From: Candidatus Onthovivens sp.
GTDB taxonomy: Bacteria; Bacillota_I; Bacilli_A; RFN20; CAG-826
Assembly: GCA_034087725.1 (NCBI GenBank)
Contig: JAXDXW010000071.1
Coordinates: 1-58,452, forward strand
DNA: 58,452 nt
Direction: 5' to 3'
In this document: one piece after another, positions 263 to 54,915 of the stretch
How the letters are laid out: every line of letters begins with the position of its first letter
How positions within the stretch are numbered: the stretch's first letter is position 1
Made by a program: the position numbers and the translations under genes
The notes under the pieces: generated by a model
Told to the model about the DNA's origin: nothing
Seen by the model: only the letters and a program-made list of their open reading frames with translations
Database searches by the model: none

Positions 263-1703
263 TTTTAATATTTTTTTGAAAAGAAATGTCCATATTATCT
301 GGCAAAATCCAAGATAAAATAAAAGCTATAATGAACATATTCAAAACATTATTTGATAAAATATCTTTTAAATAATTTAATTGAGATAATTCTAAAAATT
401 TAAAAAAGCTACTAACTAATGTTAAGCCGAAACCTAGACATAAAGATAGAGATAAAATTAAAACATTTTTTTGAGAAAAACCAGCTTCAGAGCACATTTG
501 AATTCCAACGACAGCAATTGATCCGAACAGTATAACCATCGTTCCACCAAGAACAGATTCTGGTATTGTGAATAAAAAATTAGCTAAAATAGGGAAAAAA
601 CTGGCAAAAATTAGTAAAAGACTTCCGCAAAAAATAGTGAATCTATTAACAATTTTTGTTTGTGAAACAATGCCAACGTTTTGAGAAAATGTTGTAAGAG
701 GCATCGTTCCAAACATTGCACATATAGCAGAATTAAATCCATCAACAAACAATACACCTGTAATTTCACGATTTGTTGGTTTTCTTTCTAGACCTGATGT
801 ACATAAAGCGTTAGTATCGCCAATGCCTTCAACAACTGCCATCAAAAAACATAAGGTTGTAAGTAATATTGGTACCAAATCGAATTTTAATTTAGAGAAA
901 TCTATTAAATGTGGGTAGGTAATTATATCTTCTACACCTTTAATTGCTAAAGATGAAAAATTTAACATGTTTGGTATGCAAAGAGATACTAAATATCCTA
1001 CTATAATAGCAAAAATTATATTTAAATTTTTCCAAATTCCTTTTGCTAAAAGTTGAAACAATATTGCTGAAAATAAAGTAATAATGCTGACTATAATATA
1101 AAAATAATAAGGGGCAGGGGTTGATTCACCATTTGCTAGTGCTGTTAAAACTGAATTTCCGCCTAAAAATTGTGTTGCGCCTGAAGAAATTAAACTTAAA
1201 CCTATTCCAAAAACAACAACGCAAGGGACTATTTGTTTAAGTAATTTGCCCCGCCATTTAATAAACAGACTCAAGAAAGCAGCGATTAATCCTCCAATTA
1301 AAATAGAACCCATTATTGTATAATAACCAGTTTCCCCTCCACCATAAGAAAGTCCAATAGTAATAAAAACACCTACAAAAGTAAATGAGGTGCCTATTAC
1401 AATAGGAAGTCTTGCACCAAAAAATAATTGAATGATTGTTCCTAATCCTGCCATCAATAGTGAGCCTTGAAGAGCTTGCGTTGCTATTTCAGTATTATTT
1501 ATTCCTATTGCTCCAAATACAATCAAAAGCGGAGTAACATTTGCAACAAACATAGCAAGAACATGCTGAATTCCGAAAGGTATTGCTTTTCTTAATGGAA
1601 CCTTACCATTAATACTGAATAAATTTTCTTCTTTACTATTGCCTTTAAAGATAGACAAAAAACCTTCTTTTAAATCAACAATAAATTCTCTTACTTTTAT
1701 CAT
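255..1703 (-). CDS. Xanthine/uracil permease (NCS2 family)
   Basis: 482-aa multi-TM protein with GIQHVLAMF and the NCS2 signature PLTTFSQNVGIVSQTK. One in-frame CGG at 1251-1253 (KW-CGG-GK). Confidence 0.9.
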   Translation of the reverse strand: MIKVREFIVDLKEGFLSIFKGNSKEENLFSINGKVPLRKAIPFGIQHVLAMFVANVTPLLIVFGAIGINNTEIATQALQGSLLMAGLGTIIQLFFGARLPIVIGTSFTFVGVFITIGLSYGGGETGYYTIMGSILIGGLIAAFLSLFIKWRGKLLKQIVPCVVVFGIGLSLISSGATQFLGGNSVLTALANGESTPAPYYFYIIVSIITLFSAILFQLLAKGIWKNLNIIFAIIVGYLVSLCIPNMLNFSSLAIKGVEDIITYPHLIDFSKLKFDLVPILLTTLCFLMAVVEGIGDTNALCTSGLERKPTNREITGVLFVDGFNSAICAMFGTMPLTTFSQNVGIVSQTKIVNRFTIFCGSLLLIFASFFPILANFLFTIPESVLGGTMVILFGSIAVVGIQMCSEAGFSQKNVLILSLSLCLGFGLTLVSSFFKFLELSQLNYLKDILSNNVLNMFIIAFILSWILPDNMDISFQKNIKND

Positions 1704-1827
1704 ATGTATTTAATTTTACTTTAATTAAATTATTATTGACATAGTCAAATGAAAAAATTTTTAAATTAAAAGAGAAAACTTGATAGTTTTTTAAAAAACC
1801 CTGCAAAAGTCCACTATTTTTTTAAAA

Positions 1828-1848
1828 AACCCGCATACAATGCGGGTT
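1828..1848 (-). terminator. Rho-independent terminator of fucO
   Basis: Inverted repeat AACCCGCA-tacaa-TGCGGGTT, followed by a U-tract on the minus strand. Confidence 0.75.
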
Positions 1849-1870
1849 CTTGTAATCTCCTGGTTGAGCA

Positions 1871-52051: not shown

Positions 52052-52052
52052 A

Positions 52053-53468
52053 TTATTCTCCTTTAACTATACAGCGAGCAATGTAAACTCCACTCGCACT
52101 GGCTTGAGCTAATCCTCGTGTAATGCCCGCTCCATCTCCTCCGACATATAAATTTTTAATTTCTTTTACCATTAAAGATTTTTCACAAACAGGATAAGCA
52201 CTATAAAATTTAGCTTCAACACCATAAAATAATGTATCGTCATTTGCTATACCCGGAGTTACATGATCTAAAGCTTCAATCATTTCAATCAATGATTGCA
52301 TTGTTTTATATGGCATACATAAAGTTAAATCTCCCGGGACAGCTTCTTTTAAAGTAGGTTTAATGAATCCTTCACGAATTCTTTTTTCAGTTGATCTTCT
52401 ACCTCTTTTGATATCTCCGTATTTTTGGACAATAACTGAACCACAACTTAACTTATTTGCTAATAACGCTATAGAATATGCAAATTTATTTGGCTCATTG
52501 AATGGTTCTTTAAATTTATGAGAAACCAAAAGAGCAAAATTAGTATTTGAACTTCCTAATTTTTTATCAGCGTAACTGTGTCCGTTGGCTAAAACGACAT
52601 TATGATCATTTTCTAAAACAACATGTCCACTAGGATTTGAGCAAAATGTTCTAACTTTCGTGCCCACGCTTGTGTTATAAATAAACTTACCTTCATAGAG
52701 ATTATTATTAATCTCTTCCATAATAACATCGCTAGTTTCGACTCTTACACCAATATCTACTTGATTGTTGCACATTTTAACACCATGTGAAGTCAATAAC
52801 TCATTTAAGAAAATTGATCCATCTCTTCCAAGGCACAAAACAACCTTATCACCAAAAATTGTCGTACCATCATGAGTGATAATTCCTTTAACTTCATCAT
52901 TTTCAACAATGATATCTTTCAAGCTTGTCTTAAACCTAATATCAACTTTTGTTTTTAGATAATTGTAAATTCTCTCTAAAATTAGCAAGTTCTCTTCTGT
53001 GCCTAAATGTCTAACTTTTGCGCGGAGTAATTTTAAACCTGCGCCAATAGCTTTTCTTTCGATTTCTTTAATTTCGTGTGTATATGGATTCGTAACAACT
53101 TTAGTTGCTCCGAATGATAAATTTATTTCGTCGCAATAATTAATTAAGTCTAAAACTTCTTCATCGCTAATGTACTCGTTTAGCCATCCTCCAAATTCAG
53201 TTGTAATATTATATTTCCCATCCGAGTATGCTCCTGCACCTCCAAAACCTGAAGTCATAGAGCAGGCTGGATAGCAACCTTGAATGCCTTCTTTATTTCT
53301 AGGACAACGCTCAATTTGATGATTTAAAACAGGACATCTTCTAGACAAAATATCGTAGCCTTTTTCAATTAATAAAATTTTCAATTGTGGATTCAACTTG
53401 TTTAATTCATATGCGCACATATAGCCACTAGGTCCGGCTCCTACAATAATGACATCAAACTTTTCCAT
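52053..53468 (-). CDS. Uncharacterised NAD(P)/FAD-dependent oxidoreductase (COG2509-like)
   Basis: Motifs [35 protein letters not shown] and [10 protein letters not shown]. Confidence 0.85.
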
Positions 53469-53637
53469 ACAAAAACTCCTTCAATTTTGGCTTCAATTCA
53501 CATAGTTATATTTATAAATAAATATCTTTTCTTTAATCACTAAAACATTATAATACAAAATGCGTTTTAATACTTATTAAATTTAATTAAATAATTTTTT
53601 ATAAATAAAAGAAATTATTAATTAAAAAGCTTTAAAA

Positions 53638-54915
53638 CTACTGTTTATTTATGTGTTTTTCAAAATATAAATCGTATATTGCTTCAGTTGCGAAATGAAT
53701 TTTTGTTAAAGCTAATTTATTATTAATAAGCCACCCAAAATATGTTTCACTATTTGAAGAAAAATCTATAGCTGAGCCGGCATTTTTCTTATCTTTTTTA
53801 TCTTTTTCATTAAATTCAATATGTACACTAGGTAATAATTCAACAGGTCTATCAAAAGAGAAATCACTGCCATCAGCTAATTTACCTCTAAGATGCATTC
53901 CATCATAATCGTGAATAAAATGCATTTTGCCAAGACTTTTCCATCCAACAGATGGTTTAAATAATTTTTTAAGTATTACATCATCTTCGAAATGATATTG
54001 GCCACTTCTAACTTCTTTAATAACTTCCTCTTTTTCCCAAAGATACCATTCAGGAATAGAACTAAATTTAGTTTCACCCTGTAGATTGTGAAGAATTCCA
54101 TCCTCATCCAATTCGTATGTTGTATGACAATGATTGCAGGTAATAGTTGTGCCTTTTCCTATCATTTCATACTCCGTACCACAATGAGGGCACTTGTATA
54201 AAATCTTATGTGAATTATTCATTCTATTTTTATCTTTAACCTTGAATCCGTTTTCTTTTTGAAACTCATAATCATTGTAATAGAAATTATCTTCAATTCT
54301 TTTTTGAATTTCTTCTGCCGAAAGTTTCTCTACATCTTCCATAGAAACCAAAACTTTAACATCGCTAGTAAGTTTCGTTTTTCTTTGAGGGTGTTTATCC
54401 CGTTGAGGAGATTGTATAAAATTGCCGTGATTCATCTGCAGCACAACTGGTACTTTAACTTTTTTAATTAGTTTGCCTAATGCTTTATCAATCTTTTCAT
54501 TAATGCCAGCTAAAGAGAAGCGAACTTCCGGATAAATACACAAGACCTTTTTGTTTTTAATAACATTTATCATGTGTCTAACGTTAGTTATATCAGGAAT
54601 AAATTTTCTTTTTGGATAGCAACCTAAGGTTCTCATAACGCCTTCGCCGATATTATAAAATTCTTCTATTGAAACAACCCAACACATCTTTCTATATTTA
54701 AAGGCAACAAATTGGTTGATAAAATCGGTAAATGAAGCATGATTTGCTAAAACAATAAAAGGTCCTTTTAATTTTCTAACATCGTCATCAATATTGATTT
54801 TTAATCTATACCAAAAAGCAATAATTCTAGAAAGAACATTAGCAACACAATAAAGTGGGGTAACATGCATTTGCGGTGCTTTATTAATATCAATTTCTTT
54901 AAAATTCATTTCCAT
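53638..54915 (-). CDS. Lysophospholipid acyltransferase family protein (PlsC-like) with C-terminal Zn-ribbon
   Basis: LANHASFTD (HxxxxD), IYPEVR, and CPHC...CNHC. CGG at 54400-54402 in SPQ(W). Confidence 0.8.
   Translation of the reverse strand: MEMNFKEIDINKAPQMHVTPLYCVANVLSRIIAFWYRLKINIDDDVRKLKGPFIVLANHASFTDFINQFVAFKYRKMCWVVSIEEFYNIGEGVMRTLGCYPKRKFIPDITNVRHMINVIKNKKVLCIYPEVRFSLAGINEKIDKALGKLIKKVKVPVVLQMNHGNFIQSPQRDKHPQRKTKLTSDVKVLVSMEDVEKLSAEEIQKRIEDNFYYNDYEFQKENGFKVKDKNRMNNSHKILYKCPHCGTEYEMIGKGTTITCNHCHTTYELDEDGILHNLQGETKFSSIPEWYLWEKEEVIKEVRSGQYHFEDDVILKKLFKPSVGWKSLGKMHFIHDYDGMHLRGKLADGSDFSFDRPVELLPSVHIEFNEKDKKDKKNAGSAIDFSSNSETYFGWLINNKLALTKIHFATEAIYDLYFEKHINKQ

What the first reader, a model, noticed from the sequence alone, without database searches (positions are those of the whole stretch)
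1251..54402. Genetic code reassignment: CGG is read as tryptophan
Many 'R' residues in the standard translation fall at conserved Trp positions, and every one I checked is encoded by CGG. LeuRS: EKK-W (39503), HPIG-W-DAFG (39302), MRQ-W-MLKIT (38966), RQRY-W-GEPIP (38270). PurA: GAQ-W-GDEGKGK (52019). PotD: YM-W-GTLG (14044), A-W-SGDA (13660). GlgC (43238), RfbB (21344), PepV (33121) and the PlsC-like protein (54400) show the same. Other CGGs lie in or beside hydrophobic segments: EzrA 28482, ORF 49186, permease 1251, PanT 33807 and 33849. Of 16 in-frame CGG found by eye, none is at a conserved Arg. TGG is still used for Trp. A CGG Arg-to-Trp change has been reported computationally in a few low-GC bacterial clades, including uncultured Bacilli (Codetta screen, Shulgina & Eddy). 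The phenomenon is therefore known, but this genome would be mistranslated by table 11 and may extend or belong to such a clade. It predicts a tRNA with a CCG anticodon and Trp identity elsewhere in the genome.
Basis: partly seen in the sequence, partly recalled or inferred. Interest (0 to 1): 0.9.

Follow-up and report, generated by a model that had tools for sequence, protein, structure and literature searches.

The report
CGG read as tryptophan (Onthovivens clade)
This gut-type, low-GC Bacilli contig uses the arginine codon CGG for tryptophan; the reassignment is real but already published for its genus (Onthovivens/UBA4855), and this species uses CGG several times more often than the published members.

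Summary
Twelve sit in columns where Trp is the commonest residue (invariant in 80 of 80 homologues at three sites). One aligns to Phe, two fall at variable hydrophobic positions, one has no homologue data, and none falls at an Arg column.

In a codon-by-codon control, CGG sites behave like TGG sites (fraction W 0.68 against 0.75, fraction R 0.00). AGA, AGG, CGU, CGC and CGA sites behave as Arg (R 0.52-0.62, W 0.00).

The closest relatives are Ca. Onthovivens merdipullorum, UBA4855 and UBA6380. This is the RFN20 Bacilli clade in which Shulgina and Eddy (2021) reported CGG to Trp.

Six relatives carry an orthologous tRNA-CCG at a partly shared locus. It has A1:U72, G73 and U20 (not A20), and its stems keep pairing through compensatory changes. 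The window itself lacks this tRNA.

What may be new is degree. CGG supplies about 14.5% of Trp codons here (9 per 10,000 codons), against 2-4% in the published species. One TGG/CGG polymorphism was seen within the species.

The parts
1251..1253 (-). CGG codon, aa151 of the NCS2 nucleobase permease (ORF 255-1703)
   Evidence: W in 118 of 120 homologues. R occurs only in a 99%-identical same-species protein and one other.
13660..13662 (-). CGG codon, aa287 of the PotD-like polyamine-binding lipoprotein (ORF 12982-14520)
   Evidence: Aligns to Phe in PDB 4eqb, so an aromatic position.
14044..14046 (-). CGG codon, aa159 of PotD-like protein
   Evidence: Aligns to the W of YFWGTLGI in PDB 4eqb.
21344..21346 (-). 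CGG codon, aa332 of dTDP-glucose 4,6-dehydratase RfbB (ORF 21317-22339)
   Evidence: Aligns to the W of YQSWIEQNY in PDB 1g1a.
28482..28484 (-). CGG codon, aa27 of EzrA (ORF 26835-28562), at the end of the N-terminal membrane helix
   Evidence: No homologue data were obtained, so this site is uninformative. Pfam EzrA match.
33121..33123 (-). CGG codon, aa99 of PepV-type dipeptidase (ORF 32050-33417)
   Evidence: W in 8 of 9 relatives and in PDB 3khx and 1lfw.
33807..33809 (-). CGG codon, aa120 of ECF transporter S component (ORF 33507-34166)
   Evidence: Variable hydrophobic column (I2, Y2, A, L, S), no Arg.
33849..33851 (-). CGG codon, aa106 of ECF transporter S component
   Evidence: Variable hydrophobic column (L5, G, I, A), no Arg.
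38270..38272 (-). CGG codon, aa423 of LeuRS (ORF 37133-39538)
   Evidence: TGG (W) in 80 of 80 homologues.
38966..38968 (-). CGG codon, aa191 of LeuRS
   Evidence: TGG (W) in 80 of 80 homologues.
39302..39304 (-). CGG codon, aa79 of LeuRS (HPIG-W-DAFG motif)
   Evidence: W 68, F 9, Y 3 of 80.
39503..39505 (-). CGG codon, aa12 of LeuRS
   Evidence: TGG in 78 of 79. The relative SUG1359 (L001) also has CGG here.
43238..43240 (-). CGG codon, aa75 of GlgC (ORF 42326-43462)
   Evidence: W 5, Y 4, I, T, G among 12 relatives. In the PDB alignment a W lies two residues away.
49186..49188 (+). CGG codon, aa60 of a 161-aa membrane protein with no Pfam match (ORF 49009-49494), inside a predicted membrane helix
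   Evidence: W 24, Y 17, L 12, I 7, F 5, no R or K among 88 representatives. The closest homologues have W.
52019..52021 (-). CGG codon, aa11 of adenylosuccinate synthetase PurA (GxQ-W-GDEGKGK)
   Evidence: TGG (W) in 80 of 80 homologues. W in PDB 4m0g and 3hid.
54400..54402 (-). CGG codon, aa178 of an acyltransferase with a zinc ribbon (ORF 53638-54933)
   Evidence: W 115, F 3, Y 1, R 1 of 120. The single R is the same-species protein P0001, whose DNA also reads CGG.
18053..19708 (-). Arginyl-tRNA synthetase gene (context, not a reassigned codon); includes the N-terminal domain
   Evidence: Pfam Arg_tRNA_synt_N, tRNA-synt_1d and DALR_1. From general knowledge, the N-terminal domain reads A20 of tRNA-Arg.
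22538..22614 (+). tRNA-Arg(UCU), the window's own Arg tRNA, used as a contrast
   Evidence: Its D-loop AGTTGGATA has A20 and its discriminator is A73. The clade's tRNA-CCG has U20 and G73.

Best explanation
The organism is an uncultured low-GC Bacilli of the Onthovivens/UBA4855 lineage (GTDB order RFN20). It decodes CGG as tryptophan, and the other five arginine codons, UGG and the three stop codons keep their standard meaning.

Inferred mechanism (codon capture, as proposed for this clade by Shulgina and Eddy):
1. AT pressure made CGG very rare.
2. The Arg tRNAs able to read CGG (anticodons UCG and CCG) were lost.
3. A dedicated tRNA with anticodon CCG but Trp-type identity now reads CGG. It has G73, A1:U72 and no A20, so TrpRS should charge it and ArgRS should reject it.
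4. TGG-to-CGG transitions have therefore become synonymous and are accumulating.

Shown here: the codon-to-residue correspondence in this contig; the presence, conservation and partly shared gene neighbourhood of the tRNA in relatives; and the retention of Arg meaning by CGA and AGG.

Inferred: that this genome itself carries the tRNA, that the tRNA is charged with Trp, and that decoding is not ambiguous.
For: - Sixteen in-frame CGG codons, none at an Arg column. Twelve fall where Trp is the commonest residue, including invariant Trp in LeuRS and PurA.
- Control across all codon types: CGG sites have fraction W 0.68 and R 0.00; TGG sites have W 0.75; AGA, AGG, CGT, CGC and CGA sites have R 0.52-0.62 and W 0.00 (Fisher p = 5e-11).
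- In outgroup genomes, CGG aligns to this window's Arg codons. In the closest relatives, the few CGG codons align to its Trp codons.
- Independent assemblies of the same species from other samples (97-98.8% nt identity) keep the same CGG codons at the two sites those contigs cover. One shows a TGG/CGG difference at another site.
- Six relatives, including BRZ_E_bin40 (PurA 80% identical), carry a tRNA-CCG with A1:U72, G2:C71, G3:C70, G73, U20, A37 and an encoded CCA. In four of them it lies after galK, a Wzy_C membrane protein and a small ORF.
- The cloverleaf is 100% paired in all six copies, with 5 pairs changed on both sides.
- Published source data for genus UBA4855 show the same pattern: Codetta infers Trp, tRNA-CCG is present and tRNA-UCG absent.
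- GC is 0.30, and AGA makes up 382 of 601 Arg-box codons.
Against: - No tRNA-CCG lies on this contig. The rest of the genome could not be reached.
- Absence of an Arg-type tRNA-CCG or tRNA-UCG in this genome is untested, so ambiguous decoding is not excluded.
- There are no protein-level data.
- The acceptor-stem features of the tRNA (weak 1:72 pair, G2:C71, G3:C70, G73, A37) overlap the published criteria for Gln identity. The tRNA alone therefore does not say Trp; the codon alignments do.
- Three sites are uninformative (EzrA and the two in the ECF S component).
Confidence: 0.93

Rival explanations
1. CGG is decoded ambiguously. A Trp-type tRNA-CCG coexists with an Arg tRNA able to read CGG, so both residues are inserted.
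For: The tRNA set of this genome is unknown. Shulgina and Eddy themselves say that only experiments can exclude ambiguity.
Against: CGG sits at invariant Trp positions of essential enzymes (LeuRS, and next to the PurA P-loop), where frequent Arg insertion should be harmful. Published clade members lack tRNA-UCG and have a single tRNA-CCG. The rise to about 15% of Trp codons argues that CGG is a safe Trp codon.
Confidence: 0.05
2. CGG still means Arg, and these proteins tolerate Arg at former Trp sites.
For: None beyond the standard code as a default assumption.
Against: Twelve independent Trp-column sites, three of them invariant in 80 of 80 homologues, are all encoded by the rarest Arg codon. 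None of the 159 sites with the other five Arg codons is W-majority. No CGG lies at an Arg column.
Confidence: 0.005
3. The CGG codons are sequencing or assembly errors, or are corrected by C-to-U editing of the mRNA.
For: Each CGG is one transition away from TGG.
Against: At the two CGG sites they cover, contigs from five other samples (ENA ERZ13405566 and ERZ28634322; Logan SRR7193024, SRR7193031 and ERR5729352) show the same CGG. Relatives keep a dedicated, structurally conserved tRNA-CCG, which editing would make pointless. From general knowledge, site-specific C-to-U mRNA editing is not established in bacteria.
Confidence: 0.01

Closest known systems
CGG Arg-to-Trp reassignment in GTDB genus UBA4855 / Candidatus Onthovivens (order RFN20, Bacilli); Shulgina and Eddy, eLife 2021 (PMC8629427); restated in PMC13092985 and bioRxiv 10.64898/2026.05.03.722492
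   Same: - The same codon and the same new meaning.
- The same lineage: best matches are O. merdipullorum, UBA4855 and UBA6380.
- The same low GC and AGA-dominated Arg usage.
- CGA, AGG and UGA are unchanged.
- The same kind of tRNA-CCG (G73, no A20, A1:U72) in relatives.
   Different: CGG is 9.1 per 10,000 codons and 14.5% of Trp codons here. The published species have 0.86-2.5 per 10,000 Pfam-aligned codons, about 2-4% of Trp codons. The denominators differ (all ORF codons against Pfam-aligned codons).

This species is only 55-77% identical in protein sequence to the members held here over a handful of genes, so it is probably a different species from the four published ones.
CGG-to-Trp in Anaerococcus, and Trp-like tRNA-CCG in Finegoldia (same paper)
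   Same: The same codon change, low GC and a dedicated tRNA-CCG with Trp features.
   Different: An unrelated lineage. The later papers place it in class Clostridia and call the two genera unrelated. CGG there is much rarer (0.15-1.5 per 10,000), and no supporting conserved positions were found.
CGA plus CGG to Trp in Absconditabacteria/Gracilibacteria
   Same: CGG is read as Trp. My pattern scan recovered their Trp-like tRNA-CCG genes, some in tandem with tRNA-Trp(CCA).
   Different: There CGA is also reassigned and UGA means Gly. Here CGA aligns to Arg (R-majority at 9 of 16 sites, W at 0) and UGA ends 6 ORFs.
CGG-to-Gln in Peptacetobacter; unassigned CGG in Mycoplasma capricolum
   Same: Low-GC Bacillota (formerly Firmicutes) in which CGG lost its Arg reading.
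   Different: No CGG column here is Gln-rich. CGG is used 16 times, including in essential genes, so it is not unassigned.

Membership tests
Onthovivens/UBA4855 CGG-to-Trp genetic code | CGG codons align to conserved Trp columns, not Arg columns | tested here: met
   Trp is the commonest residue at 12 of 16 sites and Arg at none. Fraction W is 0.68 and R is 0.00, against R 0.52-0.62 for the other Arg codons.
Onthovivens/UBA4855 CGG-to-Trp genetic code | The genome encodes a tRNA-CCG with G73 and no A20 (published rule; A/G1:U72 is supportive) | not testable with these tools
   The contig has only tRNA-Cys, tRNA-Arg(UCU) and tRNA-Pro, and other contigs of this assembly could not be reached. Six relatives do have it, with G73, U20 and A1:U72.
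Onthovivens/UBA4855 CGG-to-Trp genetic code | No tRNA-UCG and no Arg-type tRNA-CCG, so that CGG has a single dedicated reader | not testable with these tools
   This needs the whole genome. The published clade members show this pattern.
Onthovivens/UBA4855 CGG-to-Trp genetic code | Low genomic GC with depleted CGN codons and AGA-dominated Arg usage | tested here: met
   GC is 0.27-0.33 along the window. Counts: AGA 382, CGT 73, AGG 55, CGA 42, CGC 33, CGG 16.
Onthovivens/UBA4855 CGG-to-Trp genetic code | Phylogenetic placement within the clade | tested here: met
   LeuRS is 82% identical to Ca. O. merdipullorum and 76% to UBA4855. PurA is 80% identical to BRZ_E_bin40, 77% to UBA6380 and 76% to O. 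merdipullorum. Genomes in which CGG aligns to Arg begin at 69% LeuRS identity or less. No marker-gene tree or GTDB-Tk run was made.
Onthovivens/UBA4855 CGG-to-Trp genetic code | CGA, AGG and UGA keep their standard meaning (this separates the code from the Absconditabacteria, Enterosoma and Mycoplasma codes) | tested here: met
   Arg is the majority at 9 of 16 CGA sites and 10 of 17 AGG sites; W is the majority at none. All 41 ORFs are intact under table 11, and 6 end in TGA.
Peptacetobacter CGG-to-Gln code | CGG aligns to Gln columns | tested here: not met
   Gln is absent from the residue counts listed for the CGG-site columns.

The most novel reading that the evidence does not exclude
This species may be the most advanced known stage of CGG capture in Bacillota. 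After reassignment, CGG has rebounded to about 15% of Trp codons, 3.5 to 8 times the published Onthovivens species, and TGG/CGG differences still segregate within the species.

Together with relatives where CGG is Arg (UBA6877), apparently unassigned (UBA6380) or rare Trp (UBA4855), it would complete a four-step natural series of codon capture inside one genus. It would also be the best target for proteomic proof, because many proteins carry a CGG-encoded Trp.
Probability: 0.4. Interest if true: 0.5.

Novelty: new member of a known kind. Interest (0 to 1): 0.4.

Why it matters
Sense-codon reassignments in bacteria are rare, and all reported ones rest on computation. I found no experimental confirmation in the library searched.

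The practical point is immediate. The public NCBI proteins from this contig are the table-11 translations: the table-11 translations of LeuRS and PurA, with Arg at the CGG sites, are found exactly in NCBI nr. They therefore carry Arg where the cell almost certainly puts Trp, including next to the P-loop of PurA and in conserved motifs of LeuRS. Such errors spread into protein databases, alignments and structure predictions.

The scientific point is that a lineage with roughly 15% of its Trp codons as CGG gives many more testable peptides. It is also a later time point for studying how a captured codon spreads.

Tried and rejected
- Exact-protein look-ups of four window proteins found no contig on record. 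The window turned out to be a whole 58,452-bp NCBI contig whose accessions are hidden, so I could not walk to the rest of the genome.
- Same-species contigs L193-L196 extend about 8.5 kb past the left end but carry no tRNA.
- The first tRNA pattern required AGGG...CCCTG and caught only 2 clade members. A D-arm-based pattern caught 3 more.
- RNAalifold did not recover the cloverleaf of the AT-rich tRNA, so I counted pairs on the ARAGORN cloverleaf instead.
- I looked for the nearest annotated tRNA among phage records. I also compared the tRNA with a B. subtilis tRNA-Trp recalled from memory: 69% identity, no better than a tRNA-Gly at 70%. Neither settled whether the tRNA-CCG arose from tRNA-Trp, so I make no claim about its origin.
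- The extra CGG in the acyltransferase paralogue on L193 falls in an unalignable N-terminus.
- The EzrA site has no homologue evidence.
- For PotD aa287, E. coli W229 is only my recollection. The one structure aligned there shows Phe.
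Full report
**What is in the window.** The window is 58.4 kb at about 30% GC, with nearly all genes on the - strand. 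The 41 ORFs of at least 100 aa hold 17,630 codons: AGA 382, CGT 73, AGG 55, CGA 42, CGC 33, CGG 16 and TGG 94. A 17th CGG at 8918-8920 lies just upstream of the ATG of ORF 8183-8908, and the CGGs near infC lie between stop codons. On the sense strand CGG occurs 16, 38 and 136 times in frames 0, 1 and 2, so the in-frame codon is strongly avoided.

**What the CGG codons align to.** I fetched LeuRS and PurA loci from 160 species-representative genomes. I then aligned all window proteins to them by tblastn, with CGG masked as X.
- LeuRS: aa12 is W in 78 of 79, the other being CGG in relative SUG1359. aa79 is W 68, F 9, Y 3. aa191 and aa423 are each W in 80 of 80.
- PurA aa11 is W in 80 of 80.
- PepV aa99 is W in 8 of 9.
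- GlgC aa75 is W 5 and Y 4 of 12.
- The two ECF S-component sites are variable hydrophobic positions.
- PDB alignments give W for PurA (4m0g, 3hid), PotD aa159 (4eqb), RfbB aa332 (1g1a) and PepV (3khx, 1lfw), and F for PotD aa287.
- Database searches give W in 115 of 120 for the acyltransferase site and W in 118 of 120 for the permease site.
- For the small membrane protein ORF49009 the counts are W 24, Y 17, L 12, with no R or K.
- Only EzrA aa27 has no data.
- No CGG lies at an Arg column.

**Control.** I applied the same procedure to every Arg-box codon and to TGG.
- CGG sites (9 with at least 5 homologues) have mean fraction W 0.68 and R 0.00.
- TGG sites (26) have W 0.75.
- AGA (100 sites), AGG (17), CGT (19), CGC (7) and CGA (16) have R 0.52-0.62 and W 0.00.
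- W is the majority at 7 of 9 CGG sites against 0 of 159 sites for the other Arg codons (p = 5e-11).

CGA and AGG therefore remain Arg, and the ORFs are intact with TGA as a stop. The reverse view agrees. In outgroup genomes (LeuRS 69% identical or less), CGG aligns to this window's Arg codons. In the nearest relatives, the few CGG codons align to its Trp codons.

**Not an artefact.** Contigs from five other samples are 97-98.8% identical in DNA to the window. They are ENA ERZ13405566 and ERZ28634322, and Logan SRR7193024, SRR7193031 and ERR5729352. They keep the CGG at the permease and acyltransferase sites, the only two CGG sites they cover. One of them has CGG where the window has TGG, at an aromatic column of the acyltransferase (F 90, Y 17, W 12).

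**Who it is.** The best matches are:
- LeuRS: Ca. Onthovivens merdipullorum 82%, SUG1359 79%, Bacillales bacterium UBA4855 76%.
- PurA: BRZ_E_bin40 80%, UBA6380 77%, O. merdipullorum 76%, SUG431 76%.

Figure 4-source data 1 of Shulgina and Eddy lists GTDB genus UBA4855 as the 'Bacilli CGG->Trp clade', and the main text places that clade in order RFN20. Four of its species are inferred as Trp, with tRNA-CCG present and tRNA-UCG absent. UBA6380 is scored '?', with no tRNA-CCG and almost no CGG. UBA6877 is scored Arg and has a tRNA-UCG. Later papers call the genus Onthovivens. The window therefore belongs to the published clade, probably as a different species.

**The tRNA.** The contig has only tRNA-Cys, tRNA-Arg(UCU) and tRNA-Pro. 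Two pattern scans of the species-representative genomes, plus one look-up through the neighbouring Wzy_C gene, recovered an orthologous tRNA-CCG in six relatives. These are BRZ_E_bin40, SUG431, UMGS236, a Hadza MAG, SRP141132_co3_321 and an ENA contig. In four of them the tRNA follows galK, a Wzy_C membrane protein and a small ORF; the longest contig shows gatCAB and galM further upstream. All six copies have A1:U72, G2:C71, G3:C70, G73, the D-loop AATGGTA or AGTGGTA (U20, not A20), A37 and an encoded CCA. The cloverleaf is 100% paired in all six, and 5 pairs have changed on both sides, so the gene is under selection.

By the published rule (G73 and no A20, with A/G1:U72 as support) it is Trp-type. 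By contrast the window's own tRNA-Arg(UCU) has A20 and A73. The window also encodes ArgRS with its N-terminal domain. From general knowledge, that domain reads A20. The acceptor-stem features would also fit Gln identity, so the amino acid assignment rests on the codon alignments, not on the tRNA.

**Mechanism.** The best-supported reading is codon capture under AT pressure. CGG became rare and the Arg tRNAs that read it were lost. A dedicated tRNA-CCG charged by TrpRS took the codon over, and TGG-to-CGG transitions are now silent. The codon evidence and the tRNA in relatives are shown here. The charging, the presence of the tRNA in this genome and the absence of ambiguity are inferred.

**What may be new.** CGG is 9.1 per 10,000 codons, and 16 of 110 Trp codons (14.5%, 95% CI 8.5-22.5%). 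The published species have 0.86-2.5 per 10,000 Pfam-aligned codons, which is 1.8-4.1% of Trp codons (p = 1e-5 against 4.1%). Most relatives' loci held here show 5% or less. One 8-kb locus (L181) shows 3 of 16 and another (SUG340) 1 of 14. The denominators differ and 58 kb is a small sample, so this is a lead and not a result.

**Consequence.** The table-11 translations of LeuRS and PurA from this contig match NCBI nr sequences exactly. The public records therefore carry Arg at these Trp positions.

**Verdict.** The reassignment is already published for this genus, so this is a new member of a known kind and of moderate interest.

Noticed in passing
window 22719-22810 and 56826-56915: Two near-identical copies (about 90 nt, 98% identical) of an intergenic element holding the hairpin CACGGGGTATTT/AAATACCCCGG. 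One lies about 105 nt after tRNA-Arg(UCU) and the other about 55 nt from tRNA-Pro(UGG). There is no Rfam match, and none of the relatives' loci held here contains it. It accounts for the clusters of non-coding CGG.
   Followed up: partly
window 43474-48900 (- strand): JetA (Pfam JetA), a DUF4194 protein (JetB-like) and a JetC-like SMC ATPase lie in a row, with no JetD-like gene after them because glgC follows directly. This is a Wadjet/MksFEB-type set lacking the nuclease partner. In relatives SUG431 and the Hadza MAG, a distantly related three-gene set (21-29% identical in the JetA- and JetC-like proteins) sits immediately downstream of the tRNA-CCG.
   Followed up: partly
window 18053-19708 (- strand): The arginyl-tRNA synthetase gene lies on this contig, with its N-terminal domain. 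It contains no CGG codon.
   Followed up: partly
L192 codon 395 of the acyltransferase gene (window codon 401, about 53731-53733): Within-species difference: CGG in an ENA contig that is 97% identical in DNA, TGG in the window. The column is aromatic (F 90, Y 17, W 12).
   Followed up: yes
L193 1992-3287 (same species, beyond the window's left end): A second 431-aa acyltransferase paralogue (33% identical to the window's copy), followed by ftsZ and ftsK. It has one CGG at codon 33 in an N-terminus that cannot be aligned.
   Followed up: partly
window 55911-56315 (+ strand): An isolated 134-aa ORF with a weak match to the type I restriction-modification specificity domain (Methylase_S). No neighbouring hsdM or hsdR gene is present, so it is probably a remnant.
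   Followed up: no
window about 23270-23856 (+ strand): infC: the ATG-started ORF begins at position 23 of the IF3_N profile, and the upstream in-frame stretch is open. The real start is therefore probably a non-ATG/GTG/TTG codon, as is usual for IF3.
   Followed up: partly
L162 1538-3360 and L174 4306-4506 (Dactylosporangium): Clusters of 77-nt tRNA-like genes share almost the same backbone (CAGGGC...CCTGCCC, no encoded CCA) but have different anticodons (CTC, CCG, TCC). One CCG copy has A37.
   Followed up: no
L171 1480-1688 and L175 7760-7962 (Absconditabacterales and 'Peribacteria' MAGs): tRNA-Trp(CCA) is followed about 60 nt later by a Trp-like tRNA-CCG. This fits the published CGG-to-Trp reading in that group.
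   Followed up: no
whole window: The window is an entire 58,452-bp contig of an NCBI-deposited assembly. The NCBI nr proteins match the table-11 translations, with Arg at the CGG sites.
   Followed up: yes
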